The notes beneath the pieces were generated by a model. The model ran no database searches. It saw nothing but the letters and a program-made list of their open reading frames with translations, and was not told where the DNA came from. 64,000 nt of DNA from Candidatus Altimarinota bacterium (GTDB lineage Bacteria > Patescibacteriota > Gracilibacteria > BD1-5 > UBA6164), in assembly GCA_027066455.1 (NCBI GenBank), contig JAMONT010000083.1, forward strand, positions 4,052 to 68,051, in the 5' to 3' direction. A program made the position numbers and the translations under genes. Shown one piece after another: positions 3,856 through 63,620 of the stretch. Position 1 is the first letter of the stretch. Each line of letters opens with the position of its first letter.

Positions 3856-3880
3856 ATTCTTTATTAAAAATTATTCTTTT

Positions 3881-10765: not shown

Positions 10766-10825
10766 AATTTTTATTTTTTTTAAGAAAATATTAAGGAAAT
10801 TTTATAAAATAAAAAACCTCATAAT

Positions 10826-10872
10826 GAAGCCTCTTTCCTTTTGACCAAAAGGAGAGAATTCAAGAGAGGAAT
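10826..10872 (+). repeat. GC-rich palindromic element, intergenic copy
   Basis: gaagcctctttccttttgaccaaaaggagagaattcaagagaggaa. Ends about 7 nt from the stop codon (10879-10881) of the minus-strand gene. Confidence 0.75.
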
Positions 10873-10878
10873 ATTATT

Positions 10879-11280: not shown

Positions 11281-11363
11281 AATTTTACTTGATTAAAAAA
11301 TATTTTATACCTTTTTATAATATGAAAAAAAGCTAAATAGTCAAAAAAATTTTAAAAAAAAAA

Positions 11364-11410
11364 TTCCCCACTTGAATTCTCCCCTTTTGTAAAAAAAGGG
11401 AAGAGGCACA
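11364..11410 (-). repeat. GC-rich palindromic element, intergenic copy in reverse orientation
   Basis: The reverse complement reads tgtgcctcttccctttttttacaaaaggggagaattcaagtggggaa. Confidence 0.7.
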
Positions 11411-11427
11411 TAATTAATTACAATAAT

Positions 11428-11475
11428 TTGTAGCCCCCTTCCTTTTGACCAAAAGGAAGGGATTCAGGGAAGGAA
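11428..11475 (+). repeat. GC-rich palindromic element, intergenic copy
   Basis: tttgtagcccccttccttttgaccaaaaggaagggattcagggaaggaa. Ends 4 nt from the stop codon 11480-11482 of the beta-propeller gene. Confidence 0.8.
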
Positions 11476-11479
11476 TTTT

Positions 11480-13876: not shown

Positions 13877-13908
13877 AATTTTTTTAATTAAAAAATAAGA
13901 TATTCTCA

Positions 13909-13970
13909 ATTATAAGAATATCTTTTTTTAAAGCAAATTTTTAATGTGAAGATTTTGTGAAGAAATTTTT
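13909..13970 (-). promoter_or_regulatory. Conserved promoter cassette, copy 1
   Basis: Minus-strand reading: TTCACA-aaatc-TTCACA, then TTGCTT (-35), a 16 nt spacer, and TATAAT (-10, 13909-13914). About 33 nt upstream of ATG 13876. Confidence 0.6.
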
Positions 13971-13984
13971 TAGCAAATTTTAAA

Positions 13985-14869
13985 TTATTCTCAAGGAATT
14001 TCAAAGTCTCATTTTGCAATAATATATCAATTTCAACTTTTTATATAAAATTTATATTTTCAATTTTTTTCAATTTTTATACTATTTTCTCATAAAAGAA
14101 CAGAATGAAAAATTATTTTATCTTTTAATTTATAGGAAAGTATTTTTTTAGGTGTATTTACATTATAATAATAAAATATTCTATTATTTTCATCATAATC
14201 AGTCATACACATAAGATTTTTAATTGTATAATTTAATAAAAGATTTTTTCAATTAATTTCAAAAGTATATTTTAACATTGAATAAGGTTCTAATTGTCAA
14301 CATAAAATTTTAATATCATCAACACCTGAATTTGCAGCAATTTCAAAAACAAAACCTCTAGTAGCTAAAGCATCATAATCAGTAAATTTTTTAACATCTC
14401 ATTTTTTTTCAACTGCAAAATTTACAACTTGTTCTTGCCAAGTTTCTTTTTTTGTAGAATCATAAGAATATTTATCACCATAACTGGCTTTTACAATCAT
14501 TGCAACTGCTTCTGCTTTTGTTATATTTTTTTCAGGATTAAATTTTTTATTTTTGGCTATTAAATTATTATCTATTAAAGCTTCTATTGTATAACAAGCC
14601 CAAGAATTTGGATTTGTAGCAGAAACATCTGTAAATAAATTATCACATTTTTCCTTTTTTTCTATTCAAGCAAGTCATCTAGCCACAACAGCTATTTCTT
14701 GTCTTAAAACAAAATCATCAAGTTTATATTTTTCAGGATTTTCTAAATGGTTATTTATTATATTTTTTTCAGCTAAAAAATTGGCAGAAAGAATTTCTGA
14801 TTTAGTATATGCATTTGTATTATTTATAATAAATAAAGAAAAAATTATAAATAAAAATATTTTTCTCAT
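13985..14869 (-). CDS. Secreted protein with N-terminal SLH-like (S-layer homology) repeats
   Basis: Signal peptide MRKIFLFIIFSLFIINNTNA, then LSANFLAEKNIINNHLENPEKYKLDDFVLRQEIAVVA and a second ...ITKAEAVAMIVKA segment. 295 codons, in frame with track ORF 14675-14869. Confidence 0.55.
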
Positions 14870-14905
14870 AAAAATTTTAAAATTAAAAAAATAAATTACT
14901 TAATT

Positions 14906-14967
14906 ATTATAAGTAATTTATTTTTTTAGCAAATTTTTAATGTGAAGATTTTGTGAAGAAATTTTTT
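14906..14967 (-). promoter_or_regulatory. Conserved promoter cassette, copy 2
   Basis: Same TTCACAaaatcTTCACAttaaaaaTTTGCT core (14928-14967). -10 TATAAT at 14906-14911. About 37 nt upstream of ATG 14869. Confidence 0.6.
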
Positions 14968-14980
14968 AAAAAATTTATTT

Positions 14981-17662
14981 CTACATTCATATAAGTAAAA
15001 AAATAACTTCTTCTTCCAATTTTTTATTTAAATATTTAAATAAATTTTCATATTTTTTATGAGTTAAAATCAAAATATTTATTTTTGAAATAATTGATTT
15101 TAATTTAGCTATTTTTTGTTTATTAGTATAATTATATTTATCCATTTTTAAAATAAATTTTTTAATTATAGAATCTATTTTATCTTTTAATTCATTTGTC
15201 ACTTCAATTCCATTTTCTTTTTTCTTTTTACAATCTACAGAATAAGTATCTTTTTCTTTTTCACTACAATAATTATCTATCTTTACACATTTTGAAAAAT
15301 TATCAGTTCATTTAACTTTTACTTTTGCTAAACCTGAAATACAAGATTTATTACTATTTTTAGGAATATAAACAGTTTCTTCTCAATATTCCCTTATTCA
15401 AGTATATTTACAATTTTTAACATTAAAGGAATTCGGTAAGAAATGATTTACTTGTTTTTTTGTTTCAAAATTGTAAGAATAAACAGGATATTCCATACAT
15501 TCATAAGCTCATTTTTGAGTGTTAATAGTTTCTATTTTATCATATCAAATCACACAATTTTTAGAATTATAAATTTTTTTAGTTCAAGAAGGAACATCAT
15601 AGTTTTTACATCATACTTTACAATCTACAGAATTATATTTGTTTTCATTTGTAGAACATTTTCAGTCACCAATTTTTACACACATTTTATCTCATTTTCA
15701 ATCAGAAAGTGCTACTAAAGAATAAGCACATTCTCTTTTTATTGTTAAAGGTAATAAACTATAAAATTTTGTATTTAAACTTCAAAATTCTTTAACTTTT
15801 CAAGTATAATCATTTGAGTAATAAGAAAAAGAATAATTACTGTATTTCATAAATTTTTCAAATTCTTTACTTTCAAAAAAATAATCAAATATTTCTTCTT
15901 TATAAGTATTATTATATTTTTCTAAAAATTTTTTCCAATTTTGTAATTCATAACTAGTAATTTGTCTTTTTAATCAAAATTTATAAAGATTTTTTATAAA
16001 TTGTTCTTTTGAAATATTTTGAGTTAAGACATTATCTTGACTAACAAATAATTCTCAATTTGCTGCATCTTTTAATATGTCTTTTATTATACTGTTTTGT
16101 ATTTGATTTTCAGAATATTTTTTTGATCAAAATATTTTTTTATTTTGATAATAATTTATTTCTGTTAAAGAAGGCATTCTCCACAAAACTTCTTTATAAA
16201 TATAATTTATAAATTTTATATTTTCATCTTTTTCTTCTTTTATATCAGGTTTATTTATTTCTTCAATTAATTTATTATTTGGAGTGAAAACTGTCCAAAA
16301 ATTTCAGTTGTTACATAAACTTCCAGAATAATTTGCTGGATATTTTCAACTTTTTCAACTTCTAAGTTTATTAGTTAATTCTTGTAAACTAGAAGAAATA
16401 TACATTCAATGTTGGTCTTTTAATCATTCATATTTTGTTCAAATAAATTTTGAATTATAACATTTTTTTGGAGAATTTATATAAGAATAATCCATTTTAT
16501 ATAAATCACTTTTAAAAGTTCATAAATTTTTTATAACTTTTTTATTTTTTATTTTCCAATCAATTAAATCAAATTTTATTAAAGAAACTTTATTAGAATT
16601 TGAATTAATAGCTCAAGAAGGGTGAGCAAAACTTAAAGAATATAATCAATATAATTTTATATTATTTACTTTACAAATTTTTTGATAAATATTACAATTT
16701 ACTGAATTAGTTCAGACTTTTTTCATTTCACATCAATTTTCAGCTATTGGTTTTGGTTTACATACTGAATTTTCAACATCAATAAGATTATTGTTAAAAG
16801 TTCATTCAATATAACAATTTACTTTTGTTTTTCACTTAAATTGTTTAACCCATTCATCTGATATTTTTCTTGATAATCATCATACAAAATCTCAATATTT
16901 TCAAGGATTTATATTTTTAGGTGGAAATAAAAATAATTTCATTTTTTTTGTACTTCATTGACAAATTAAATTAAAATTAGTTTGGTTTATGTTAGAGGAA
17001 ATTCATCAAATATGACCTCATTGATTTAAAATTCTATAGCTATTTTTTTCCTTACTATAAGGGTTATTATATTCATCATTCAAAACTTTTAATTTTATAT
17101 TAACTCAAGAATTTCAAATAATTATTTCTCAAGAAATTGGTTTTATAGAAGTTTTTATATTTTTATAAAAATCTTCACATTTTCATTTAAACAAAAATTT
17201 TGAATTTTTTCTTTCCATTTCACATTTATTTCAAAAAGTTGTTCTTTCTCAATTATAAATTCAGCAAACAGGTATATATTCTTTTGTACAAGCGTTCAAA
17301 GAATTTTCTAAAACTTTTATTTTTAATTGTTTTGAAGTTTTATACCCATTAGTATCATCACAACTAATTCATAAATTCATACTATTTATTTTAGAAAAAT
17401 TTTTATGTTTAGCTGTTAAAGTATAAACTCAATTTGTTCAAGTTCTAAGAATATCTGTCCAATATTTTCATTCTGAAATTTTAATATGATTTCAAAAAGT
17501 GTAACAATCTTTAAATCATTTTGTTTCCCATTTTACTTGAAATTTATCTCATTCAAAAACTGTTTTAGGTCAAGTAAAATTTAAAATTGTATTTTCAGCA
17601 TAACTATTATTTATACTAAAAAAACTAAAAATTAATATAAATATTAAAAATCTTTTTTTCAT
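14981..17662 (-). CDS. Large secreted cysteine-rich protein with a Kazal-like domain and DUF4214-like segments
   Basis: 894 codons. Signal peptide MKKRFLIFILIFSFFSINNSYA. Kazal-like ACTKEYIPVCGIYNGERTTFGNKCEMERKNSKFLFKGKC (17174-17293). The C-terminus equals track ORF 14987-15202. Confidence 0.65.
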
Positions 17663-17695
17663 AAAAATTTAAAATTAAAAAAATAAATTATTCTC

Positions 17696-17765
17696 ATAAT
17701 AAGAATATCTTTTTTTTAAGCAAATTTTTAATGTGAAGAAATGTATGGGGTTTGTGGAAATTTTT
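17696..17765 (-). promoter_or_regulatory. Conserved promoter cassette, copy 3 (distal box diverged)
   Basis: TTCCACAaaccccatacatttcTTCACAttaaaaaTTTGCTT, 16 nt spacer, TATTAT (17696-17701). About 34 nt upstream of ATG 17662. Confidence 0.5.
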
Positions 17766-19309: not shown

Positions 19310-19372
19310 AATATAGTCAACTTATTTTTTAAAGCAAATTTTTAATGTGAAGATTTTGTGAAGAATTTTTTT
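19310..19372 (-). promoter_or_regulatory. Conserved promoter cassette, copy 4
   Basis: TTCACAaaatcTTCACAttaaaaaTTTGCTT, 16 nt spacer, TATATT (19310-19315). About 37 nt upstream of ATG 19273. Confidence 0.6.
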
Positions 19373-19375
19373 AGA

Positions 19376-19568
19376 AAATTTATTTCTACATTCATATAAG
19401 TATAAGTAAAAAAATAACTTCAATTCCATTTTCTTTTTTCTTTTTACAATCTACAGAATTATATTTGTTTTCATTTGTAGAACATTTTCATTCACCAATT
19501 TTCACACACATTTTATCTCATTTTCAATCAGAAAGTGACATTAAAGAATAAGCACATTCTCTTTTTAG
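19376..19568 (-). pseudogene. Deleted remnant copy of the 3' end of the 14981-17662 gene
   Basis: Near-identical to about 14981-15012, 15203-15245 and 15621-15735 joined head to tail. Junctions lie at the short repeats acttc and caatctacagaat. No start codon or signal peptide found. Confidence 0.5.
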
Positions 19569-20404: not shown

Positions 20405-23400
20405 TTAATCTTTTTTTTCAAATTTTATAGTTCAACCTTTTTTTACAAAATTTTCTAAAATACTTATATATTCATTATATTTTTCTTTATCTAAATCAGA
20501 ATGATAATTATTTTTAATATTTTCATAAACTGATTTTAATTCATCTGCTTCAAAATTATCTTTTTTTACTTGAGACAAAATAAGTTTTATAATTTGCATC
20601 AATTTTTTTGATCTCATTCTAGTTTTTACTCCAGTATTATCTTTGAAAACTACCCATTTATAAATACTAACATCAATATTTTTAATTTTTTTATTAACTG
20701 TTTTTTCTTTATCTTTCAAATTATCAAAACTAAATTCTGAAAGTAAATTATCTCAATATTTTTTTGTATATAAAGTAGAAATAATTATTAAAACAACTCA
20801 TAAAATTCAAAAAATAATATATCTTGAAGTTATATCTCAAACTTCCCAAACATCAAATAAAAATATTTTAGAGATAGTTAAAACTAAAAAATATAATCAA
20901 ATAGTTCTAAATTTTTGTAAATCTTTTTGAATTCAATAAATAAGTAAAACTGAAGCAATTAATCACCAATACAAAGTTAAAGAAAAATGTTCTAAATTAT
21001 TTTTAAAAATATCTAATACATAAATATTACTAACTAAAAATGCATAAATTCACAAAATAATTTTTAAAGTTAAATTAATTTTTTTATTTCAAATATTTTC
21101 TTCCTTTTCCAAAGGAAGTCCCGAAGGGGATGGATTATTGCTTTTTTTCCAAATAAAAATATTAAAAACTAAAATTCAAGTTACTAAATATTGCAATATT
21201 TTCAAATATTCTAAATTTCTAACTTCTAATGTAGAAAAAATATTATTTATATCTCAAATATGAAAAATAGAAAATCATAAAATAATTACTACAAAAACAT
21301 ATTTTAAAAAATTTGTATTCAATTTTGAATAAAAAAATCACAAAATTGTTATAAAAATAATTATCCCAAATTTACTCCATCAATTTCCATTACTAGGAAT
21401 TATTTCATATAATAAAATTCACATAATAATCATTCAAATTATATGTAAAATATAATGAATATTTTTTAAAACTATATTTTTTTCTTTTATACTCCTTCCC
21501 TTAGGCTTAAGGGAAGGTTGGGAAGGGTTAATTTCTTTTTCCTCTATAAAAAATAAATTTAAAATAAATGAAGCTAAAATTACTGAAAAACTAACTAAAA
21601 ATAAATAATTTTCTGATTTTACTTCATCAATTAAAATTCAAAATTGTGTTAATCAAATGAAAAATAAAATAGTTGCAGCAATAAATATTTTTTTAGAATT
21701 ATTTCTAGAGAAAATATAATACAAAATAGTTGCTTCAAAAAGCCAAACAGTTGTAATAATTTCTGGATATTTTGAAAATACAAAAACCATAGAAACAGAA
21801 AAAATTGAAATACTAATTCAAGCAAAAGTATAAAAAATATTTTTCAAACTTTCATCTTTTTTTACATTTTCTATTCAAATTTTTTGTATAAAAAAGTAAG
21901 CTTGTAAAAAATAAACAATTGCTAAAGCTAAAAAAGCAAATCATTCTATAACTCAAGGAAAATAAATTTCTCAATAATTATAAATTTGAAAAGAAATAAA
22001 TAATGCCGAAGCTACTACTCAAATAATTAAATTATAAAGATTTTGTTTTTCAAATAATCTTTTGTTTATAAAAGGTAAAACAAAATTAGAAATTGCAAAA
22101 ATAATTATTGCTATAATTGAAACTAAAAATAAAATTGAATTATTATTAGAAATTACTAAATATGGTGCAAAAGTTATTATTGTTCAAATTGTTCAAATAG
22201 GGAAGAGTGTAGATAAATCTTTTTTTGTTGAATAATAATAAGAAAAAAATAAAAATATAAAACTAGAAAATAAAATAGTAAAAAATTCTAAATTATTAAC
22301 ATTATTTAAATTTCAGATAATATTTAATTCTAAATTAAATAAAAATATAAAAAATCATAAAAATATAAAAAGAAAATATTTATAATAATTAGAAATATTT
22401 TTTTCTATAACTGAAAATCAAAGTAAAAATAATATTAAAAAAAGTGTTAAAGTGAAAGAAGAAAAAATTAAATCTCAAGAAAATAAAATTAAAATAATTA
22501 TTACAAAAGGAATAATAAATATAGAAAAAATTCCAGATTCCTTATCTTTTACAAAATTTTTCAAAAAATAAATACTAAAAGCAAATAATCATATCAAAGC
22601 AATATTATAAGCTAAAAAACTAAAAGTTTCAGATAAAAATCAAGAAGAATTAAATAAATTTAAAATTATAAAAAAATAAGTTCATAAAAAAATATATAAA
22701 ATATTTCAGCTAATATTATCTTTAGAAAAATTGTATGCTATTTTTATTGAAATAATACTTAAAATAATAGTAAAAATAATTTTTACACTCCAGCCAATTG
22801 AATCAGAAAAAGGTGCTGCAAAAAATAATAAATTTCAAAAAATAAAACTAATAATTAAAAGAGTTAAATTATTTTGTTTGTTAGCTAAGAATAAAGCTCA
22901 CAAACTTACAATAAAACTATATCAAACCAGAGTATAAGGTTCAGTTCCAGAAGTTCAAATTATAAAAGGATTTATGTATGCAAAAATAAATGAAAAAATT
23001 AAAAGAGTTTTTGATTTATAAATTAAAGAAGTTAAAATTCAAAGAATTGTATTTAAAATCAAAAATAAAAATGTTGTAGTTTCAGCAAAAAATATTTTAT
23101 TTCATCATATTAATAATTCATTTCATCATACTAAATGTCTTCAAGCTAAGATAACAGCATAATTTATCAAAATCCCTGTTCACATCAAAATAAGTCATTC
23201 TTGTTTATATTTTTTATGTAATTTTATTCAAGAAAAATAAATAATAAAACCAATAATTATTCAAATAACAACTCTTCAAATAGGTCAAATAATTTCCCAA
23301 ACATTTATTGCAAGTCATTTTAAAAAATATACAACCATTAAAAAAAGTAAAATTCATCATATTTTAGCTAAAATATTTGTAGAAAAAAAATTTTTTATAT

Positions 23401-23974
23401 ATGTTCAAAGTTTTTCAAAAAATATTTCAGTAGGACTTGATTCATAAAGTATTTTTTCTTTTGAAATTATTGTAGCCCCTTTCTCCCTATAAGGGAGAGA
23501 GGATTCAGGAGAGAGGGGATTTTCTTTTTTTATAGTTTCAAATCATTCATCTGGTAAATCATTAATTCCAATTTTTTCTTCTTCCAAAGATTTTGTTCAA
23601 AAACCAATTTTATCTAATTTAGTTTCAATATTTTCTTTTAATTCCAAAGATTTATATTTTATATCTTCATTTTTTAATTCATCTACTTTACTTTTTATTT
23701 TATCAATTTCTATATTTTCTTTTTTTTCATTTTTTACAAAACTATCATTATTTTTAGTTTTTTTATTTTCAATTGCATTTGCAAAAAATTCTAATCTTTC
23801 TTTTATAAAAGTACTAGAAAATAAACTTTTTTTTATAATTAAAATAAGAAAAATAGTAGTTATGAAAAAAATAAATTCTCATAAAAAATAAAAAAATCAT
23901 GAAAAAAATCCAATAATAACTATTCAAAGTATTATTGATATAACCCAAGCAAATCTATTTAGTAATTTAAACAT
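20405..23974 (-). CDS. DUF2339-like polytopic membrane protein (about 1190 codons)
   Basis: N-terminal TM helix plus coiled coil, then several dozen hydrophobic helices. The C-terminal soluble domain equals track ORF 20432-20719 plus GTIKFEKKD. Length is divisible by 3 and no TAA/TAG was met in manual translation. Confidence 0.65.
21100..21136 (+). repeat. GC-rich palindromic element, variant copy, in-frame in the DUF2339-like gene
   Basis: cttccttttccaaaggaag-tcccgaagggga-tggatt. Read on the minus strand as NNPSPSGLPLEKEE. Confidence 0.6.
21492..21529 (+). repeat. GC-rich palindromic element, diverged copy, in-frame in the DUF2339-like gene
   Basis: ctccttcccttaggcttaagggaaggttgggaagggtt. 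Read on the minus strand as NPSQPSLKPKGRS. Confidence 0.6.
23470..23519 (+). repeat. GC-rich palindromic element, consensus-like copy, in-frame in the DUF2339-like gene
   Basis: ttgtagcccctttctccctataagggagagaggattcaggagagagggga. Read on the minus strand as ENPLSPESSLPYREKGATII. Confidence 0.85.
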
Positions 23975-24019
23975 ATTTTTTTTATTAAGAATTATTTTAT
24001 AATTAAACTTTCCCTTTTT

Positions 24020-24067
24020 TGTAGCCTCTTTCTCCCCACAAGGGAGAGAGAATTCAAGAGAGAGGGA
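24020..24067 (+). repeat. GC-rich palindromic element, intergenic copy
   Basis: tgtagcctctttctccccacaagggagagagaattcaagagagaggga. Abuts the stop codon 24070-24072 of the TSP3-repeat gene. Confidence 0.8.
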
Positions 24068-24069
24068 AA

Positions 24070-25731
24070 TTATTTCAATTTTACAGCCATTTTGAATATT
24101 GCAATTCAGAAAAACACTATAACTAAAGACAAAAGTATCATAAAAATATTTTTATTTGATTCAAAAAATCTATCATCTTTTTTATCACAAACATCTCAAA
24201 TTCAATCCAAATCAATATCACTTTGAAGAGGATTATAATCATAAGGACAATTATCATTTTTTGCTAAAATTTTATCTAAATCAGAATCTTCACAAGCATC
24301 TCAAATCCCATTATTATCCGAATCTTTTTGAAGAGGATTATAAATATTTATACAATTATCTTTTATTCAACTTATTCAATCAGAGTCAGAATCTTCACAA
24401 ATATCTCAAACTCAATTTTTATTTTCATCAAGTTGATCAGAATTTTGAATATTTTTACAATTATCACAAACATCTCAAATTCCATCTTTATCAAAATCCT
24501 CTTGCTTAGGATTAGCCATTTCTTCACAATTATCTTGAGAATTAATTATTTTATCTCAATCTTTGTCATTTTCTTTTAAAAATTTTTCTTTTTCCTCAGT
24601 AACATCTCCAATTCAATTATTATTTTTATCTAATTGTCTTGGATTATAATAAATTGAATTATCACATTTATTTCAAATATTATCCAAATCATCATCTTTT
24701 TGAAGAGGGTTAGCAATATTTATACAATTGTCTAATTGATCAAAAATTCAATCAGAATCCTTATCAAATTCACATTTATCTCATACTCAATTTCTGTTTA
24801 TATCTTCTTGCTTAGGATTATAAACATTTATACAATTATCTTTTTTTCAAATTATAGAGTCTCAATCATCATCACTACACAAATCTCCAATTCAATCAGC
24901 ATTTTTATCAAATTGTTTTGGGTTAGCTATTTTTGGACAATTATCTTCTGAATCAGGAATTTTATCTAGGTCAAAATCTTCTACTTTATTTGGATTAAAA
25001 TTTGGATTTTCTTTTAATTCTAAAAAAATAGTTTTTGTATTTTTATTTAAATTATATTCTCAATAATTATTTTTTAAATTTATATAATTATTTTTACAAA
25101 TATTTTTAGCATAAGCTTTTATTTCTCAAATAGTTTTTACTAAATAAATATAATTTTTTGAAATAAATTTTAGTTCAAAAATTTTAATTTTTTCAGGAGG
25201 AGTAATATGTTTTACTGTTGTATTAAAAGAAATTTTTAAAAATTTGAAATCATAAGTGTTTAATTTTTTTTCTGGAACAAAAAAATATTTTTCTCAATCT
25301 TTAGAAATTTCAATATGAGCATTTCTATAATTTGCTTTATATTCAAAATTAAAATCAAAACTTCAAGCTTTTAATATTTTATCAAATTCTAAAAATATAG
25401 AATTTTTATTTTTTTCCTCATCATAAATTAAAAAAGTTTTATAATTTTCATCACTCAAATATTCTAAATTTCAAAATAAATTTTTTATTTTAAAATCCAA
25501 AATTCATCAATAATTTTTATATAATTTATGAGGAATAATTTTATTATCAGAAATAAAAGTATCTATTTTTTTTGTAGAATTTATTTTTAAAGTTCATTTT
25601 TCTTGTTTTAGAATTCAAAAAAATTCATAACAATTTTCTTTAAAATTTTCAGGAATTTTTTTGAATTCTTGTGCAAAACTAGAATTTATAAATAAAAAAA
25701 ATATTGAAATTAGAACTATTAATTTTTTCAT
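24070..25731 (-). CDS. Secreted thrombospondin type-3 (calcium-binding) repeat protein with C-terminal TM anchor
   Basis: 554 codons. Signal peptide MKKLIVLISIFFLFINSSFA. About eight DNCxxxxNPxQxDxDxDGIGDxCD repeats. C-terminal IFMILLSLVIVFFGIAIF helix. Confidence 0.8.
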
Positions 25732-25816
25732 AAAAAATATCTTTAAAAAATAATTATTTTAAGTATAATAGAAAATGTATTAAAATGCAAATTTTAAAAA
25801 AATATTAATAAAAAAA

Positions 25817-30572: not shown

Positions 30573-30619
30573 TGTAGCCCCTTTCCCTTTGGCTAAAGGG
30601 AAAGGATTCAGGATAGGGA
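30573..30619 (+). repeat. GC-rich palindromic element, intergenic copy
   Basis: tgtagcccctttccctttggctaaagggaaaggattcaggataggga, in the divergent intergenic region 24 nt upstream of ATG 30644. Confidence 0.8.
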
Positions 30620-30643
30620 TAATATTAAATTAAAAAACTACTT

Positions 30644-42652: not shown

Positions 42653-42664
42653 TTTTTATATTTT

Positions 42665-42982
42665 ATGGATAATAAAGAAAAAAAAATAAAAAAAATTTTA
42701 TTTGAAAATTTGGATAATAACAAATATTCTTATTTTTTATTTGGTTCTAGAGTTAAATGAAATTTTAATAAAAATTCTGATTATGATGTTTGAATTTTTT
42801 GAGAGAAAAAATTAGATTTGAGAAAATATGTTAGTTTGAAAAGAAAATTAAATGAACAAATAAATTATAATGTTGATTTAGTAGATTTTAATAGAGTATG
42901 AAATGATTTTAAAAAAATAGCATTTAAAAACATAAAAATATGGAACAATTGAAAAAATATAAAATTATTAGAAAAAAATTAG
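42665..42982 (+). CDS. Minimal nucleotidyltransferase (MNT) of an MNT/HEPN toxin-antitoxin pair
   Basis: LFGSRVKGNFNKNSDYDVGIF matches the GSx(n)DxD NTase motif, and the motif Gly is a TGA codon. With TGA=Gly the ORF runs to TAG 42980-42982 and overlaps the next gene by 43 nt. Confidence 0.7.
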
Positions 42983-43335
42983 TAAAAGCTTTTTCTAGGT
43001 TAGAAAATTCTTTAGAACAAGAATTAAATGAATATATTCAAGATAGTGTTATTCAAAGATTTGAATTTACATTTGAACTTTTATGGAAAACATTGAAAAT
43101 ATATCTTTTAATTCAAGGGTTTGATGAAAAAACTCCAAGATGAGTTTTGAAAAAATCTTTTGAAATATCTTTGATAGAAGATATAGATTTATTTATTGAT
43201 ATGATAGATATAAGAAATCTTACTAGCCATACTTATAATGAAGAATTAGCAGAAGATGTTTATGAATTTATAAAGAAAAACCATAAAGAAATATGAAAAG
43301 TAATAGAAAAATTAGTTAGTGATGATATAGATTAA
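42940..43335 (+). CDS. HEPN-domain protein (HI0074-like nucleotidyltransferase substrate-binding family)
   Basis: ...DSVIQRFEFTFELLWKTLK... and the Rx4-6H motif RNLTSH. Track ORF 42940-43143 extended through TGA. Confidence 0.75.
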
Positions 43336-44134: not shown

Positions 44135-44842
44135 TTAAATTTTATCAAAACAAATTATATATTCTTCAAATGAAGAATCTCTACAAGCCAAAGGTTTATA
44201 AGTTTTATAGCTTTTAAATCTTTTTTTTATTTCTTTTTGTAAATCTCTAAAATCTTCTCAAACAAAAACTTTTAAAAGCATATTTCATCATTTTTTCAAA
44301 AAATTATCAGAAAATTTACAAATTTCTATATTTAATTCAACAGAAGCATATTGGTCAACATCTTTTCTCCCAGTTGTATTTGGAGCAATATCACTAGTTA
44401 TTAAATCAAATTGTTTTAATTCATATTTTTTTGTAGCCCCTTTCTCCCCAATAGGGAGAGAGGATTCAGGAGAGAGGGCTTTTATTTTTTCTCTTAATTT
44501 TTCAAAATCAAAAATATCACAAACAATAGTTTTTATATTTTTATTTCAAAAACTTTTTATTTCCTTTAAATCAACTCAAATAATAATTTTATTTTTTACA
44601 ATTTGACTAATTAATTGCAAAAAACTACCAGGAGCTGCTCATATATCTATTATATTCATTTCTGGTTTTATAAGTTCAAATCTTTTTTGAATTTCTTCTA
44701 ATTTATAAATACTTCTTGCTCTAAAACCAGCTTTTTGAGCTGCAATTGCATAAGCATCTTTTACAACAAATTGTCACTTTTTTGTATTTCTTTTTCTATG
44801 AAAACCAGTTTTTCCTTTTCCATTTTTTATATTTTTTTTCAT
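44135..44842 (-). CDS. rlmE: 23S rRNA 2'-O-ribose methyltransferase RlmE/FtsJ
   Basis: ...RARSIYKLEEIQKRFELIKPEMNIIDIGAAPGSFLQ...DLITSDIAPNTTGRKDVDQ...NMLLKVFVGEDF... 236 codons including a 17-aa insert encoded by a repeat element. Confidence 0.85.
44432..44478 (+). repeat. GC-rich palindromic element, consensus-like copy, in-frame inside rlmE
   Basis: tgtagcccctttctccccaatagggagagaggattcaggagagaggg. Read on the minus strand as ALSPESSLPIGEKGAT. Confidence 0.85.
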
Positions 44843-47540: not shown

Positions 47541-48365
47541 TTAAATTTTATTTATTTTTACTTCTTTATTTAAAAAATCAATAATTAAATTTTTTAAATC
47601 TTTTTTAATTTTTGGCTGAATATATCAAATAACAGCTCAAAGTTTATTTTCTAATTTTTCTAAATCAAACAATCATTCTTTTGTAAAAAAATCTTTAGCA
47701 AAATATTTTTTAGGAATTTCATTTTGCTGCTTATATTCTATTGCTTTTACTCAAAATAATTCTAAATAAATCAAATTTGTCATTTCTCAATAAATACTGG
47801 AATATTCATTTTTCTTTTCCTCTTTCAAAGTTTTCATAAAATCTAATTCTCAAATAGATTTTGTAAATTCATTTCTAGTTTCTATACTTTTTCATTTTCT
47901 AAAAACAAGTCTTAAAAATTCATCTTTTATATCAAAAATAAATCTTCTATACAAATCTCAACTATCTCATTTTGTTAAAACAGCACAATATTCTCAAGCT
48001 CTTAAAGTTAAAATATAATCAATTTTTTTTACTGGCCTTTTTCCCACTTCTCATTTTTGGGAAGTGGTAGACTTGGCTTGTAATTCTATTTTTTCTATTT
48101 TTTCATAATCAATATTTTCTTTAAGTCTTGCAAGGTTTGAAACACTATTCCACCACTTTTCAAATGTTTGTAGTGTTCAACTTTTTGTTAAAGGATTTAA
48201 TAATCTCCATAATCACTTTGCTGAAATTCAAGTTCAAAATCATTCTTCATCTATATCTAAATTATTTAAATAACTAAATAATCAAGATAATTGTTTTACT
48301 TCTTCATCATTATATTTTTTTGTTACTTCAATTGCTTTCACAATCATTTGGTATCATTTTTTCAT
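47541..48365 (-). CDS. Hypothetical protein
   Basis: 275 codons, ATG 48365 to TAA 47541-47543 with TGA=Gly. Contains a diverged repeat element in frame (LQAKSTTSQKGEVGKRPV). Confidence 0.45.
48034..48080 (+). repeat. GC-rich palindromic element, diverged copy, in-frame
   Basis: ggcctttttcccacttctcatttttgggaagtggtagacttggcttg has the same pyrimidine-arm / loop / purine-arm layout. Confidence 0.45.
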
Positions 48366-48414
48366 AAATAAATTTTTTTATTAAAAAATATTAATTGCAT
48401 TATAACTAAAAAAT

Positions 48415-50624: not shown

Positions 50625-52508
50625 TTATTTTGTAAGTAAATTATAATATCACATAAATTTATAACCAACTTTTTCCATTTCTATTCAAACAACTTGAGCA
50701 TAAAAACAAGTTAAATTATTATCACAAATAGTCACAATTTCTACATCTTTTGGAATTTGTTTAATAGATTCTGCCCATTTATTTTTTGACAAATAAACCA
50801 AAGGAATATTAAAACTTCATTTTAAATGAGAATTATCAAAAACTTCTTTTTTTCTAACATCAATTAAATAAATTCAATTTTTGTATTTTTTTTCTAAAAT
50901 ATTTTTTGAAAATTTGTATTTATATCTAGGTTTTTTATAAACTTTAAAAACATCTTTTTCTCACTTATAGTTTCATTTTTCTTTTATCCATCAACTTACT
51001 CAATTTTCTAAAAATCTCACATCAAATCATTTTGTTTTCAAAAATTCAGCAACTTCTATTGATTTTGTTTTTTCCCAAGTATAAACAACTATAATTTTCT
51101 TTTTATCCAATTTATCATATCCACCATTTATTAAATCAGCAAATCTGATAAACACACTTCCATCAATATAACCAGCCTTTCTTTCTATATTTTCTCTTGC
51201 ATCTAAAAGTAAATATTTTTTATTTTTTGTTTTTAAAATATTTTTTAATTCTATATTTTTAATTGATTTTATATTTATTTTTTTATTTATTTTTTTATTT
51301 TCTTCTTTTTTTTCTAAAGGAGTAATTTTTATAGTTTTACTTGTTTTTATCTTAAATTTTCAATTTTTTAATTTAATTAATTCTTTCAAAACTAAATAAT
51401 TTTTTAGTCAATTTTTATCATAAATTTCTAAATCAATAAAATAATTATTTTTAGTATTTTTCTTTAAGTAAACTTTATTTACAACTATTTTTTTTACATC
51501 TTTATACCAATTTTTATACTTTTCAAAACTAGTTTTTTTAGCTGAATTTTCATAAGCTTTTTTTAATTCTTTTTTTACTATACTATTATAATGATTTCTA
51601 AAAAATTTTTCCTCACTACTTTGCTTTACAGCCCCTTTTTCCACACCCAGGAGAGAGGATTCAGGAGAGAGGGTTTTTTTGGTTTCTGCTTTTTTTCACT
51701 TCACCAAAATTATTTTTCTTTTACTTTTTGCAAGCTCTTTTTTATAATTTTCTAGTTCTTTTTTATAATCTTGTTTTTCTTTTTTAGATAATGATTTTTC
51801 ATTTTCTATTCAAAAAAAATCATCTTCTTCATCTTCAATATTAATAGAAAAAATATCTGTTTTAGTATTTGTTTTAGCTTTTTCTAATTCTAATTCTCTT
51901 AATCTTTTTCTATTTTTTAATTTTTGAGAAATACTATATTCTTCAACTAAATTTTCAGAAAAATCTCAAGAATTTACTTTATTAATGCTTTTATCAATAT
52001 TAATTAAATCTTGTTGTAATCTTTTTATATTTGTTTGAATTTCATTACTTTTCAAAATATTTTCATTTGTACTAAAAGTGTCTTTTTCTATTTTTTTAGA
52101 ATTTTCTATTTTTTCTTCAAGTAATTTAAATTTAGAAGTTTGTTTTTCTAATTCTATTTGTAAAAGTTTTCTTCTAGCTTTTTCACTATTAAACTTTATT
52201 TTTATTGAAGTTGTTCACTTTTTTTCTTCATTTTTCAAATTTAATATTTGATTTTTTTGAAAATTTAAATCAAGTAAAAATGAAAATCATAATGAAATCA
52301 AAATAATAACAGAAAAGAAAAAGTTTTTTTTATTTCTTTCTATATATTTTGTTTTTGTATAAAAGTGAAAAGTAATTCATATAAAAAAAGTCAAAGCAAT
52401 AAAATATAACCAAAAATTTGATTTTGGTTCAAAATTATTTATATTTTCTGCATTAGAAAAGGAAATAAATAAAAAGAATATTAAAAATATTTTTATTAAT
52501 TTAATCAT
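50625..52508 (-). CDS. Membrane-anchored coiled-coil protein with two C-terminal rhodanese-like domains
   Basis: 628 codons. Start, stop and track ORF 51408-51644 share one frame. ...LLLDARENIERKAGYIDGSVFI... and ...YLIDVRKKEVFDNSHLKGSFNIP...ICDNNLTCFYA... are rhodanese signatures. Confidence 0.6.
51629..51674 (+). repeat. GC-rich palindromic element, consensus-like copy inside the rhodanese-protein gene
   Basis: acagcccctttttccacacccaggagagaggattcaggagagaggg. The track ORF start (MEKGAV...) lies inside it. Confidence 0.8.
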
Positions 52509-52644
52509 TTTTTATGATTATAAATTATTTTTTTATCATTATATTGTTTTTAAGAAAAATTTCAATTTTTTGTTTATAGTTTTTTTGCTTTAAAAATAAT
52601 AATATGATATTATTATAATAATTTAAATAATAATTTAATTTTTT

Positions 52645-59362: not shown

Positions 59363-59428
59363 ATATTTTTTTAGCTTTTTTTTGGTTTTTGAGTATATTT
59401 ACTCTAGTTTAGAAATAATTTTAAAAAT

Positions 59429-60313
59429 ATGAACAAATCACAAAATATAATTATTTACAAAAAAGAAAACTGACAAATTTCAGTTGATATTTTGATTGAA
59501 AATGAAACTTTTTGGATGACTAATTTACAAATTAGCCAGCTTTTTTGAAAATCAAAATGAACAATTAGTGAACATATTAAGAATATTTATGATGAATGAG
59601 AATTCGAAAAAAAAGCAACTGTTTGGTTTTTCCAAACAGTTCAAAAAGAATGAAATAGAGAAGTTAATAGGGAGTTAGAATATTATAATCTTGATATAAT
59701 TTTTGCAGTTTGATATAGAGTAAAATCAAAACAATGAGTGCAATTCAGAAAATGGGCAACTACTAAATTAAAAGAATATTTGATAAATTGATTTACAATT
59801 AATGAAGAAAAAATAAAATCTTGAAAAACAACTCAGTATTTTGACAAACTTCAAAATAAATTAAGAGAAATTAGATTATCAGAAAAAATATTTTATCAAA
59901 AAATTAAAGATATTTATACTACAAGTATTGATTATAATCCAAAAGATGATAAAACAATTAAATTTTTTACAACAGTCCAAAATAAATTATTATGGGCAAT
60001 TAGCAGGAAAACAGCAGCAGAATTAGTTTATAATAGAATTGATATTTCAAAACCTCTACTTTGAATGCAATCTTTTAGTAAAGAATGAGAAAATAAAATA
60101 ACTAAAAAAGATGTAATTATTGCAAAAAATTATTTAGATGAAAAGGAAATAAAAACACTCTGACTTTTAGTTGAACAATTTTTAGCATTTGCAGAATCTA
60201 TGGCAGAATCAAAAATAATTATGAAAATGTCAGATTGGATAGAAAGATTAGATTTAATTTTAAAAATGAATTGAAAAGAAATTTTAGAAAGTTATTGAAA
60301 AATTTCTCAATAA
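59429..60313 (+). CDS. RhuM-family protein (3' end apparently truncated by a frameshift)
   Basis: ...FWMTNLQISQLFGKSKGTISEHIKNIYDEGE...EYYNLDIIFAVGYRVKSKQGVQFRKWATTKLKEYLINGF...IAKNYLDEKEI... Ends GKISQ-TAA. Confidence 0.8.
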
Positions 60314-63571: not shown

Positions 63572-63620
63572 TGTAGCCCCTTTCTCCCTATCAGGGAGAG
63601 AGGATTCAGGTGAGAGGGAG
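63572..63620 (+). repeat. GC-rich palindromic element, consensus-like intergenic copy
   Basis: tgtagcccctttctccctatcagggagagaggattcaggtgagagggag. Ends 1 nt from the stop codon 63622-63624 of the tex fragment. Confidence 0.85.

What the first reader, a model, noticed from the sequence alone, without database searches (positions are those of the whole stretch)
44432..44478. Housekeeping rRNA methyltransferase RlmE carries an element-encoded 17-aa insert
rlmE (44135-44842, minus strand) reads ...CDIFDFEKLREKIK-ALSPESSLPIGEKGAT-KKYELKQFDLITSDIAPN... The inserted peptide is nearly identical to the one in the DUF2339-like gene (PLSPESSLPYREKGAT). It sits between the SAM-binding fold strand and the conserved DxAPN catalytic strand, where RlmE proteins normally have a short connector. 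An essential-type enzyme tolerating the element argues that insertion is recent, or that the peptide is structurally benign.
Basis: partly seen in the sequence, partly recalled or inferred. Interest (0 to 1): 0.65.

Follow-up and report, generated by a model that had tools for sequence, protein, structure and literature searches.

The report
Translated triplex-type repeat inside rlmE
A 48-base GC-rich repeat of a family found only in Gracilibacteria sits in frame inside the rRNA methyltransferase gene rlmE and adds a 16-residue, probably harmless, surface loop; across copies, three of its segments change together in the way expected for a DNA triple helix.

Summary
Window 44432-44479 is a 48-nt, 55% GC block in a 21% GC genome that reads TGA as glycine (code 25). 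It lies in frame in rlmE (44135-44842, minus strand) and encodes ALSPESSLPIGEKGAT, which is 16 aa, not 17. All 120 orthologues examined lack it. Their connector is 17-18 aa in 117 of 120 and at most 23, against 33 here.

The block belongs to a dispersed repeat family found only in Gracilibacteria-type genomes (about 13 species-level MAGs plus one metagenome relative). Each unit has an invariant TGTAGCC tag, a pyrimidine arm, a loop, a complementary purine arm, an ATTCA spacer, and a third arm that mirrors the purine arm. Hairpin pairs and base triplets (C.G*G, T.A*A, T.A*T) covary among copies. This is the layout of E. coli BoxC/PIT/TMECO intrastrand triplex motifs, combined with a REP-like GTAG tag.

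In this lineage about 40% of copies lie inside genes, including DnaE, DnaX, MutL, RecQ and HtpG in a relative. Genic copies are always 3n long and read in one frame, so they are translated, much like Rickettsia palindromic elements. In RlmE the insert falls in the helix-to-beta4 connector, away from the catalytic end.

No transposase was found, and triplex formation is inferred, not shown. I rate it a new variant of known kinds, of moderate interest.

The parts
44135..44842 (-). rlmE (FtsJ-type 23S rRNA 2'-O-methyltransferase), 235 codons plus stop, read with code 25 (7 TGA = Gly)
   Evidence: Translation. Pfam FtsJ E=6.6e-47. PDB hits MRM2 and FtsJ 1EIZ. 120 orthologues. Catalytic K47, D151, K191, E226 invariant.
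44432..44479 (+). The inserted 48-nt repeat unit. The TGTAG-tagged strand is the + strand; it is read on the - strand as ALSPESSLPIGEKGAT (RlmE residues 122-137).
   Evidence: Absent from all orthologues. 42-nt net gap against the closest relative's DNA.
44433..44436 (+). GTAG tag, within the invariant block TGTAGCC (44432-44438)
   Evidence: T1 G2 T3 A4 G5 C6 C7 are invariant in 70 distinct copies.
44439..44448 (+). Pyrimidine arm (Y arm), CCTTTCTCCC
   Evidence: Pairs with 44454-44463. Hairpin covariation across the family: 94.5% of cells paired against 82.7% in shuffles, 9 of 11 pairs with compensatory changes.
44449..44453 (+). Hairpin loop, CAATA. Variable among copies; encodes the variable 'IG' residues.
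   Evidence: Loop sequence and length vary freely among copies.
44454..44463 (+). Purine arm (R arm), GGGAGAGAGG
44464..44468 (+). Spacer ATTCA, near-invariant and the centre of mirror symmetry
   Evidence: A33 T34 C36 A37 invariant and T35 in at least 90% of copies.
44469..44478 (+). Third arm, GGAGAGAGGG: the mirror image of the purine arm (putative reverse-Hoogsteen strand)
   Evidence: Mirror model 9.2/12 (11.3/12 allowing A to T) against 2.4/12 for direct or inverted repeats. 88.6% canonical triplets against 67.7% when permuted and 33-47% when slid.
23471..23518 (+). Sister copy, in frame in the DUF2339 membrane-protein gene (20405-24151, -), peptide PLSPESSLPYREKGAT
24020..24067 (+). Sister copy (TGTAGCCTC / GAATTCAAG variant) in the open frame just upstream of the first ATG of the DUF2339 gene, so probably 5' leader
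51627..51674 (+). Decayed copy (tag TACAG, Y arm mutated), still 48 nt and in frame in a rhodanese-domain gene (50625-52511, -), peptide TLSPESSLLGVEKGAV
63572..63619 (+). Intergenic sister copy between two minus-strand genes
30573..30621 (+). Intergenic copy of a different arm subfamily (CCTTTCCCTTT / AAAGGGAAAGG / GGATAGGGAT)
11429..11477 (+). Intergenic copy of another arm subfamily; right half of a head-to-head pair
11363..11410 (-). Inverted partner copy (tag TGTGCC), left half of the head-to-head pair; coordinates approximate
10825..10873 (+). Intergenic copy with a degenerate tag (TGAAGCC)
21485..21535 (+). Untagged Y-arm/R-arm/mirror-arm motif inside the DUF2339 ORF (peptide NPSQPSLKPKGRS); a related architecture, membership of the tagged family not shown

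Best explanation
The 48 bp at 44432-44479 is a copy of a small, non-autonomous, GC-rich structured repeat that spreads within Gracilibacteria genomes. One strand reads: T-GTAG-CC tag, 10-11-nt pyrimidine arm, 2-8-nt loop, complementary purine arm, ATTCA spacer, then a third arm that mirrors the purine arm (G opposite G, A opposite A or T). This is the 'class II' pyrimidine-purine-purine layout of a potential intrastrand purine-motif DNA triple helix, as in E. coli BoxC/PIT/TMECO, joined to the GTAG tag typical of REP elements.

A copy landed in an A-run inside the connector between the helix that follows the CDIF strand and strand beta4 of rlmE. Because the unit is a multiple of three bases long and has no stop codon in the frame used, the ribosome reads through it. 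This adds 16 residues rich in Pro, Ser, Gly, Glu and Lys, which form a flexible loop at the N-terminal end of beta4, on the far side from the SAM site and catalytic residues. The enzyme therefore most likely still works.

Shown: the insert is a family member; orthologues lack it; the family is confined to this phylum; hairpin pairs and triplets covary; genic copies are restricted to 3n length and one frame; many conserved enzymes carry copies.

Inferred: that the insert is translated and tolerated in RlmE; that the DNA forms a triplex; that selection removes copies that break the frame.

Unknown: the enzyme that mobilises the family.

The confidence of 0.8 applies to 'a repeat-element insertion that is translated and tolerated'. 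The triplex part alone I would put at about 0.5.
For: Insert identity and position.

Absence from orthologues.

Family and distribution: 47 loci from about 13 Gracilibacteria-type MAGs, with no hit from any other kind of genome, using a pattern expected to match by chance about 0.1 times (my estimate). 32 low-GC metagenome loci carry the window's own subfamily.

Architecture: mirror model 9.2-11.3 of 12 against 2.4 of 12 for direct or inverted repeats. The relationship is specific to each copy, 8.19 against 6.53 +/- 0.20 of 9 variable positions. Hairpin 94.5% paired against 82.7% in shuffles (0 of 500 reach it), 9 of 11 pairs with compensatory changes, slid registers 52-73%. 88.6% canonical triplets against 67.7 +/- 1.6% permuted (max 73.9% in 2000) and 33-47% slid; 8 of 10 positions show both C.G*G and T.A*(A/T); column 8/35/41 is C.G*G in 55 copies and T.A*A in 15 with no exception; the third arm follows the purine arm where the Y arm is a wobble T (31 of 31). 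The window has 9 motifs against 0-1 in shuffles.

Known parallel: TMECO consensus CCCTCNCCC-N3-6-GGGNGAGGG-N3-GGGNGAGGG, described as class II and as forming a triplex in vitro (PMC4666352).

Translation: 17 of 17 genic copies in the window and its relative are 3n long (46 nt from GTAG, and 47 nt for one variant-subfamily copy), while intergenic copies are 46-49 nt. All 14 main-subfamily genic copies in the relative, and those in the window, use one frame. A decayed copy at 51627-51674 is still in frame.

Tolerance: hosts in the relative include DnaX, MutL, HtpG, DnaE, RecQ, a HerA-like ATPase and an acyl-CoA synthetase.

Location in RlmE: the orthologue model has helix 122-133, loop 134-139 and strand 140-145 and matches 1EIZ with TM 0.88. 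The insert is coil with pLDDT below 50 in the fragment model. The catalytic tetrad is intact.
Against: No full-length structure prediction with the insert could be run, because the tool refuses code-25 translations. The fragment model is poor overall (mean pLDDT 61.6), so 'disordered loop' is weak evidence.

There is no expression or protein data, so translation is inferred only from frame and length statistics.

Triplex formation is inferred from covariation. The copies are related by descent, so shuffle controls overstate independence. Nearest-neighbour folding gives only a modest hairpin (-8.5 kcal/mol, z = -1.8).

No RayT or other Y1 transposase and no REPtron arrangement was found in 744 kb, so the REP-like mobilisation route is unsupported.

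Exclusive use of one frame is not explained by stop codons, since 5 of 6 frames are open, nor by the codon phase of A-runs.
Confidence: 0.8

Rival explanations
1. The insert has been co-opted. The extra loop, or the DNA/RNA structure inside the gene, now serves a purpose: for example a new contact during 50S assembly, or a structure that slows transcription or translation and so tunes rlmE expression.
For: In this lineage all genic copies use one frame out of five open ones. Orientation relative to transcription is biased about 54:7, more than the 1.7-2.5-fold excess of A-runs over T-runs on sense strands can explain. Arms stay GC-rich in a 21% GC genome.
Against: The loop-encoded residues vary freely between copies (IG, YR, DR, CG, DV, FG, GG, CW), so conservation is at the DNA level, not the peptide level. 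The hosts are functionally unrelated. The closest orthologues work without the insert. Decayed copies exist (51627-51674).
Confidence: 0.1
2. The insertion has inactivated rlmE, which is now a decaying pseudogene in a reduced genome.
For: Candidate-phyla bacteria lose many genes, and RlmE is dispensable (slow growth) in E. coli (general knowledge). No functional data exist for this gene.
Against: The 235-codon frame is intact, with all seven TGA codons at conserved glycines. K47, D151, K191, E226 and the DIGAAPG motif are conserved. The protein is 80% identical to the closest orthologue with no frameshift. The insert preserves the frame. The same element sits in essential genes such as dnaE and dnaX of a relative.
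Confidence: 0.07
3. The 48 nt is present in the DNA but not in the protein: it is removed from the mRNA or bypassed by the ribosome, like GC-rich 'byp' inserts in some yeast mitochondria or the T4 gene 60 gap.
For: A GC-rich structured insert in an AT-rich genome resembles mitochondrial GC clusters and byp elements (general knowledge).
Against: Elements that are bypassed or spliced out do not need to be 3n long or stop-free. Here 17 of 17 genic copies are 3n long, while intergenic copies are 46-49 nt, and all are open in the frame used. The unit is far too small for a self-splicing intron, and Rfam finds nothing there.
Confidence: 0.04
4. It is not an insertion: the segment is a native, lineage-specific RlmE connector that happens to resemble a repeat, or an assembly artefact.
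For: Connector length varies a little among orthologues (17-23 aa).
Against: 55% GC in a 21% GC gene. 42 of 42 identity outside the loop to copies in unrelated genes and in intergenic DNA. None of 120 orthologues has it. The flanks are collinear with the orthologue. The same kind of in-frame copy appears in independent assemblies.
Confidence: 0.02

Closest known systems
Rickettsia palindromic elements (RPE; Ogata et al. 2000, as summarised in PMC10969869 and PMC3733652)
   Same: Small non-autonomous repeats that insert in frame into many unrelated, often housekeeping, genes and are translated into a family-specific peptide without destroying the host protein. A large share of copies is genic. 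Hosts include replication and repair enzymes (DnaE in both cases).
   Different: The best-known RPEs are about 100-150 bp palindromes confined to Rickettsia. This unit is 48 bp, carries a GTAG tag and a third mirror arm, occurs in a UGA=Gly candidate-phylum lineage, and shares no sequence with RPEs.
E. coli BoxC / PIT / TMECO intrastrand triplex motif (Hoyne et al. 2000; Holder et al. 2015, PMC4666352)
   Same: The same pyrimidine arm, loop, purine arm, short loop, mirror purine arm ('class II') layout, with 9-10-nt arms. Multi-copy and dispersed. Occurs as inverted pairs of two sequence variants. A to T substitutions in the third arm.
   Different: TMECO is always intergenic and almost invariant in sequence, so it offers no covariation. 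The Gracilibacteria family has many arm variants that covary as triplets, has a 5' TGTAGCC tag and an ATTCA spacer, and about 40% of copies in one lineage are inside genes and translated. There is no sequence homology to the TMECO consensus.
GTAG-tagged REP elements and their RAYT transposases (Di Nocera et al. 2013, PMC3733652; Nunvar 2010 and Ton-Hoang 2012 from general knowledge)
   Same: Unpaired GTAG at the 5' foot of a short hairpin. High copy number. Frequent head-to-head dimers of two variants. Positions just after stop codons. Occasional intragenic, translated copies, often in replication and repair genes.
   Different: Classical REPs are 20-40 bp simple hairpins and mostly extragenic. 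This unit has an extra third arm. No RayT-like gene or REPtron was found in 744 kb.
GC clusters and byp elements of yeast mitochondrial genomes (general knowledge, not tested here)
   Same: Short GC-rich structured mobile inserts scattered through a very AT-rich genome, including inside coding regions.
   Different: Byp elements are skipped by the ribosome and need not preserve the frame. Here the frame and length statistics indicate translation.

Membership tests
RlmE/FtsJ 23S rRNA 2'-O-methyltransferase (host gene) | FtsJ domain above Pfam's curated cut-off | tested here: met
   PF01728 E=6.6e-47, 160 bits against a cut-off of 24.1, residues 40-233.
RlmE/FtsJ 23S rRNA 2'-O-methyltransferase (host gene) | K-D-K-E catalytic tetrad and SAM-binding DxGxxPG motif | tested here: met
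   K47, D151, K191 and E226 are invariant columns. DIGAAPGSF is present with TGA read as Gly. Equivalence to E. coli K38/D124/K164/E199 rests on general knowledge.
RlmE/FtsJ 23S rRNA 2'-O-methyltransferase (host gene) | Class I methyltransferase fold matching solved FtsJ | tested here: met
   Tested on the closest orthologue only: model pLDDT 80.5; Foldseek 1EIZ TM 0.88, MRM2 TM 0.81-0.86. The window protein itself could not be modelled at full length.
RlmE/FtsJ 23S rRNA 2'-O-methyltransferase (host gene) | Methylates U2552 of 23S rRNA | not testable with these tools
   Needs biochemistry.
Intrastrand (class II, purine-motif) triplex motif, BoxC/PIT/TMECO type | 5'-pyrimidine arm, loop, complementary purine arm, short loop, third arm antiparallel to and mirroring the purine arm, with C.G*G, T.A*A or T.A*T triplets over at least 6-8 positions | tested here: met
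   The rlmE copy has 10 triplets, 9 canonical plus one T.G*G. Across the family 88.6% of triplets are canonical, with controls at 33-74%. The 8-nt detector finds 9 in the window against 0-1 in shuffles.
Intrastrand (class II, purine-motif) triplex motif, BoxC/PIT/TMECO type | Sequence match to the TMECO consensus CCCTCNCCC...GGGNGAGGG...GGGNGAGGG | tested here: not met
   The arms here are CCTTTCTCCC / GGGAGAGAGG and variants. It is analogous in layout, not a homologue of TMECO.
Intrastrand (class II, purine-motif) triplex motif, BoxC/PIT/TMECO type | Physical triplex formation (CD, NMR, footprinting) | not testable with these tools
   ViennaRNA scores only Watson-Crick and wobble pairs.
GTAG-tagged REP / RAYT system | Unpaired GTAG at the 5' foot of a short hairpin, high copy number, dispersed | tested here: met
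   TGTAGCC is invariant in 70 distinct copies. 6 tagged copies plus 3 degenerate ones in 64 kb, and 37 in 289 kb of a relative.
GTAG-tagged REP / RAYT system | Frequent head-to-head dimers of two sequence variants (BIME-like) | tested here: met
   The CALREY and JAQTXG loci show ...GGGAGGCTCAT facing TGTAGCC... with outer ends TTCATAACTC / GAGTTATGAA. The window has the pair 11363-11410 / 11429-11477.
GTAG-tagged REP / RAYT system | A RAYT (Y1 HUH transposase) gene in the genome, typically bracketed by inverted REPs | tested here: inconclusive
   An E. coli RayT profile and single sequence against 2461 code-25 ORFs from 744 kb gave no credible hit; the best two were a Nudix protein and an oxidoreductase. 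ORFs between inverted copies are housekeeping genes. The seed profile was narrow and the genomes were only partly sampled.
GTAG-tagged REP / RAYT system | Predominantly extragenic | tested here: not met
   15 of 37 copies in the relative and 3 of about 9 in the window lie inside long ORFs.
Rickettsia palindromic elements (RPE) | In-frame insertion into unrelated genes, giving a family-specific peptide | tested here: met
   xLSPESSLPxxEKGAT in RlmE, DUF2339 and rhodanese proteins, and in DnaX, MutL, HtpG, DnaE, RecQ and others in the relative.
Rickettsia palindromic elements (RPE) | About 100-150 bp palindrome with RPE sequence, in Rickettsia | tested here: not met
   The unit is 48 bp, has a different architecture, and was found only in Gracilibacteria-type genomes. 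It works like an RPE but is not one.
Classical MITE | Terminal inverted repeats and target-site duplication | tested here: inconclusive
   Single units have no terminal inverted repeats. Pairs have TTCATAACTC / GAGTTATGAA ends. Flanks are T-runs on both sides, so a duplication cannot be told apart from context.

The most novel reading that the evidence does not exclude
The family is kept in shape by selection for an intramolecular DNA triple helix. Its many arm variants would then give the first comparative (triplet-covariation) evidence that such triplexes matter in living cells. On this reading it is also a mobile element that enters coding DNA in a transcription-oriented way, spreads without a RAYT-type enzyme, and has evolved a 'stealth' reading frame whose Pro/Ser/Gly-rich peptide lets it persist inside essential enzymes of a UGA=Gly bacterium.
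Probability: 0.3. Interest if true: 0.8.

Novelty: new variant of a known kind. Interest (0 to 1): 0.55.

Why it matters
For RlmE itself the result is reassuringly ordinary: a tolerated loop insertion. The family behind it is the more interesting part, for three reasons.

1. It extends the Rickettsia-type phenomenon of selfish repeats translated inside housekeeping genes to a candidate-phylum lineage with a reassigned stop codon. There the genic fraction is high, and the hosts include DnaE, DnaX, MutL and RecQ.

2. It links two repeat classes that have been described separately: GTAG-tagged REPs and BoxC/PIT triplex motifs.

3. Its arms differ between subfamilies while C.G*G and T.A*(A/T) triplets are preserved. 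This gives natural covariation data on whether intrastrand DNA triplexes are under selection in cells, which the nearly invariant E. coli motif could not provide.

There is also a practical point. Such inserts, together with code 25, can confuse gene calling, orthology and indel-based phylogeny in these genomes.

Tried and rejected
- **Full-length structure prediction with the insert.** I used an 85-aa TGA-free fragment and the closest orthologue instead.
- **Finding the source contig or close strains for empty-site alleles.** The window protein could not be looked up. Neither the genome scan nor the metagenome scan returned the window's own genome. The nearest RlmE is 80% identical.
- **L056 as a possible rlmE orthologue with the same insert.** A blastn hit suggested this, but L056 is an unrelated 876-aa lysine-rich ORF carrying four copies.
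- **The 'MSLPLLNKRGN' ORFs next to copies as a possible transposase.** They are inverted partner copies, not genes.
- **RayT and REPtron searches.** Negative.
- **Rfam.** Only tRNAs in the window.
- **The GC-rich block in the ABC-F gene (6001-6057) as a second housekeeping insertion.** E. coli YheS aligns through it without a gap, so an insertion is not shown.
- **Seven high-GC metagenome hits.** These are one unrelated locus sampled repeatedly, with no Y arm.
- **T-run targeting as the full explanation of the orientation bias.** A-runs exceed T-runs on sense strands only 1.7-2.5-fold, against about 8:1 observed.
- **Codon phase of A-runs as the explanation of the single frame.** The phases are nearly even.
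- **A tRNA(UCA) in the window as direct evidence for the code.** None of the 7 tRNAs has that anticodon. The code assignment rests on alignments.
Full report
**1. The observation**

On the minus strand, window 44842-44135 reads as a single gene only if TGA is a sense codon. With code 25 it gives a 235-residue protein. All seven TGA codons fall at glycines that are conserved in orthologues and in human MRM2, for example DIGAAPG, IIGVD and KKGGN..VFVGED. Under the standard bacterial code, no ORF in the whole 64 kb reaches 170 aa. The window is 21% GC.

The protein is RlmE/FtsJ. Pfam FtsJ scores E=6.6e-47. The best solved relatives are MRM2, FTSJ1, Spb1 and E. coli FtsJ. The catalytic K47, D151, K191 and E226 are invariant in the orthologue alignment.

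44432-44479 is 48 nt, 55% GC, and encodes ALSPESSLPIGEKGAT, which is 16 residues rather than 17.

**2. It is an insertion relative to orthologues**

A protein search returned 746 RlmE relatives, the closest at 79, 78 and 75% identity. In an alignment of 25 of them, every sequence has a gap opposite the 16 residues. Across 120 orthologues, the connector between the CDIF strand and FDLITSD is 17 aa in 86, 18 aa in 31, 19 aa in 2 and 23 aa in 1. In the window protein it is 33 aa. Removing the insert restores the typical length.

A nucleotide alignment with the closest orthologue (L048, GCA_054003655.1) shows well-conserved flanks and a 42-nt net gap in the connector.

**3. It is one copy of a repeat family**

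GC-rich islands and repeat searches find sister copies at 23471, 24020, 63572 and 51627 (decayed), arm-variant copies at 10825, 11429 and 30573, and an inverted copy at about 11363-11410. Outside its loop, the rlmE copy is identical to the copy in the DUF2339 gene at 42 of 42 positions, and to the 63572 copy at 41 of 42. DUF2339 is confirmed by Pfam.

I scanned 185,579 species-representative genomes with a pattern that tolerates arm variation. It returned 47 loci, all from about 13 Gracilibacteria-type MAGs, a few of them labelled Peribacteria. My estimate of chance matches for that pattern is about 0.1.

A metagenome scan for the window's own subfamily returned 32 low-GC loci, mostly from one sample, Ga0256834. 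It also returned seven hits that are a single unrelated high-GC locus, which I discarded. None of these loci is the window's own genome. Rfam has nothing at these sites.

**4. Anatomy of the unit**

On the strand that begins TGTAG, the unit reads as follows, using the rlmE copy:

| Part | Sequence | Coordinates |
|---|---|---|
| Invariant tag TGTAGCC (GTAG within it) | TGTAGCC | 44432-44438 (GTAG 44433-44436) |
| Pyrimidine (Y) arm | CCTTTCTCCC | 44439-44448 |
| Variable loop | CAATA | 44449-44453 |
| Purine (R) arm | GGGAGAGAGG | 44454-44463 |
| Near-invariant spacer | ATTCA | 44464-44468 |
| Third arm | GGAGAGAGGG | 44469-44478 |
| One variable base | C | 44479 |

The third arm is neither a direct nor an inverted repeat of the purine arm. 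It is its mirror image. Over 43 distinct copies, 9.2 of 12 positions match the reversed purine arm, or 11.3 of 12 if A may become T. Direct and inverted models each score about 2.4 of 12. The relationship is specific to each copy: 8.19 of 9 variable positions match, against 6.53 +/- 0.20 when third arms are swapped among copies (max 7.29 in 5000 permutations).

On a 70-sequence alignment the hairpin shows clear covariation:
- 94.5% of cells are paired, against 82.7% in shuffles (0 of 500 reach the observed value).
- 9 of 11 pairs have compensatory changes.
- 137 cells are changed on both sides, against 37 in shuffles.
- Slid registers give 52-73%.

Counting base triplets (Y arm, R arm, third arm):
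- 88.6% are C.G*G, T.A*A or T.A*T.
- Permuting the third arm among copies gives 67.7 +/- 1.6% (max 73.9% in 2000).
- Slid registers give 33-47%.
- Eight of ten positions show both triplet states.
- Column 8/35/41 is C.G*G in 55 copies and T.A*A in 15, with no exception.
- Where the Y arm keeps a wobble T opposite G, the third arm is G in 31 of 31 copies, so it follows the purine arm.

A generic detector for this layout finds 9 motifs in the window, all on the + strand, against 0-1 in composition-preserving shuffles.

C.G*G, T.A*A and T.A*T are the triplets of the antiparallel purine-motif triple helix. Pyrimidine arm, then purine arm, then third arm is 'class II' in the scheme of Holder et al. 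(PMC4666352).

**5. Comparison with known repeats**

E. coli BoxC/PIT/TMECO has the consensus CCCTCNCCC-N3-6-GGGNGAGGG-N3-GGGNGAGGG. It has 23 copies, is always intergenic, often occurs as inverted pairs of two variants, and forms a triplex in vitro. According to that paper, purine-motif triplexes do not form in RNA. The Gracilibacteria unit has the same layout but a different sequence.

Its 5' GTAG is the hallmark of the GTAG super-family of REPs. Those also form head-to-head dimers, are sometimes intragenic and translated, often in replication and repair genes, and are thought to be moved by RAYT transposases (PMC3733652). Head-to-head pairs of two variants are common in other Gracilibacteria genomes, and one occurs in the window (11363-11410 with 11429-11477).

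I looked for a RAYT. An E. coli RayT profile and single sequence, run against 2461 code-25 ORFs from 744 kb of held Gracilibacteria DNA, gave no credible hit. ORFs bracketed by inverted copies are ordinary housekeeping genes. The window proteins I scanned with Pfam include no transposase. This test is inconclusive, not negative: the seed profile was narrow and the genomes are only partly sampled.

**6. Evidence that genic copies are translated and tolerated**

In the Ga0256834 relative, 15 of 37 copies lie in ORFs that stay open for at least 40 codons on both sides. All 14 of the window's subfamily, and the window's own genic copies, are read in one frame as xLSPESSLPxxEKGAT.

Every genic copy of the main subfamily is 46 nt from GTAG, which is 48 nt with the flanking T and N. 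Intergenic copies are 46, 47, 48 or 49 nt. This is the pattern expected if only frame-preserving copies survive in genes. Elements that are spliced out or bypassed would not need it.

The loop-encoded residues vary freely (IG, YR, DR, CG, DV, FG, GG, CW). So conservation is at the DNA level, and the peptide is a by-product.

Hosts in the relative, confirmed by Pfam:
- DnaX
- MutL, in the interdomain linker
- HtpG
- DnaE, splitting the HhH domain
- RecQ, inside the DEAD domain
- a HerA-like ATPase
- an ADP-forming acyl-CoA synthetase
- large lysine-rich proteins with up to four copies

RlmE is therefore a typical host, not an exception. This is the behaviour described for Rickettsia palindromic elements (PMC10969869; PMC3733652). 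Other Gracilibacteria subfamilies use other frames and both strands, so there is no universal 'designed' peptide.

**7. Where the insert sits in RlmE**

A full-length prediction with the insert was not possible.

The closest insert-free orthologue models well (mean pLDDT 80.5). It has helix 122-133, loop 134-139 and strand 140-145, which leads into DIAPN. The model matches 1EIZ (TM 0.88) and MRM2 (TM 0.81-0.86).

The window's insert aligns to the end of that helix and the loop. That is the helix-to-beta4 connection at the N-terminal end of beta4. In a Rossmann-type methyltransferase this edge is opposite the C-terminal strand ends that form the SAM and catalytic site (inference from the fold).

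In an 85-aa fragment model, the insert follows a helix and is coil with pLDDT below 50. The fragment model is poor overall, so this is weak evidence.

**8. Orientation and target**

Every copy is preceded by a T-run: T at -1 in 43 of 43 copies, and mostly TTTT. On the coding strand this is an A-run after the ACA codon, and the empty rlmE site would be ...ATAAAA|AAAAAATAT.

In the window's lineage the TGTAG strand is antisense to genes. Genic copies are 19:1 and genes flanking intergenic copies are 35:6. Other subfamilies show no bias, 39:36. None of the window's 9 motifs lies in a plus-strand gene block, so the bias follows transcription rather than a fixed chromosomal strand.

Sense strands carry 1.7-2.5 times more A-runs than T-runs, which explains only part of the bias. 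A-run codon phases are nearly even (261/274/367), so target phase does not explain the single frame. Five of the six element frames are open under code 25, one of them only because TGA is a sense codon. These two biases remain unexplained.

**9. Age**

The intact GC-rich arms in a 21% GC genome, together with absence from the closest available relative (proteins 80-85% identical, partly syntenic), fit a fairly recent insertion. DNA-level constraint could also keep the arms intact. No closer strain was available. The decayed but still in-frame copy at 51627-51674 shows that copies of different ages coexist.

**10. Verdict**

The thing itself is a new variant of known kinds. It works like an RPE (a translated selfish repeat), is built like BoxC/PIT (a class II triplex motif), and is tagged like a GTAG REP. 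It is not a sequence homologue of RPEs or of TMECO.

The triplex and the mobilising enzyme are inferences and open questions. A search of the held literature found no prior description of such repeats in Gracilibacteria.

Noticed in passing
whole window: The genome uses genetic code 25 (TGA = Gly). No code-11 ORF reaches 170 aa, and TGA sits at conserved glycines of RlmE. None of the 7 tRNA genes in the window has a UCA anticodon.
   Followed up: yes
window 891-3870 (-): Adjacent HerA-type ATPase (DUF87; 891-2795) and SIR2_2-domain protein (2770-3870). This arrangement resembles a SIR2-HerA anti-phage defence pair. It was not scanned against PADLOC.
   Followed up: partly
window 5995-6062 (+), in the ABC-F gene 5374-7287: A 50% GC block with a hairpin (CTCCCTTT/AAGGGAG), encoding ISLLQREYPEGEGFECEYT in the ABC1 arm region. 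It looks like another inserted repeat type, but E. coli YheS aligns through it without a gap, so an insertion is not shown.
   Followed up: partly
window 21095-21150 and 21485-21535 (in the DUF2339 gene): Two further GC-rich structured blocks lacking the GTAG tag, in frame (SNNPSPSGLPLEKEE; NPSQPSLKPKGRS). The second has the pyrimidine/purine/mirror-arm layout. With them, this one gene would carry three elements in its coding region, plus a fourth (24020-24067) probably in its 5' leader.
   Followed up: partly
L048 10714-10756 and 9036-9093: The closest relative has untagged pyrimidine/purine/mirror-arm motifs, one of them immediately downstream of its insert-free rlmE. The triplex-type layout therefore recurs in several repeat families of these genomes.
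   Followed up: partly
window 42653-43332 (+): A nucleotidyltransferase (NTP_transf_2/Polbeta) and NTase_sub_bind pair, like a toxin-antitoxin pair, lies between SecDF and the mechanosensitive-channel-like gene. The syntenic region of the relative L048 has no such pair.
   Followed up: partly
window 24073-25758 (-): A secreted protein made of thrombospondin type 3 (calcium-binding) repeats, encoded by 105-nt tandem DNA repeats at 24185-24979.
   Followed up: partly
window 13881-14004, 14869-15000, 17661-17739, 19326-19405; also 15617-15741 and 19443-19567: AT-rich blocks of 70-125 nt repeated (78-96% identity) next to several secreted-protein genes. They may be shared promoter or leader regions, or remnants of a paralogous duplication.
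   Followed up: no
window 59408-60310 (+) and 47544-48377 (-): A RhuM-family protein and an AntA/AntB-like protein, both often associated with prophages or mobile islands.
   Followed up: no
L056 5218-7845 (-): In the metagenome relative, an 876-aa lysine-rich protein with a signal peptide carries four in-frame copies of the repeat (two subfamilies). L062 (MutL) carries one tagged copy plus an untagged block (NPSLKSKGRGEE).
   Followed up: partly
L002, L005, L015, L024, L032, L034, L039, L045, L046 (CALREY MAG): Units occur as head-to-head pairs of two variants with outer ends TTCATAACTC / GAGTTATGAA. Some left halves carry an extra 25-nt insertion (GTCCACAGGATACACCTTCGGATAA). These resemble composite BIME or MITE structures.
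   Followed up: partly
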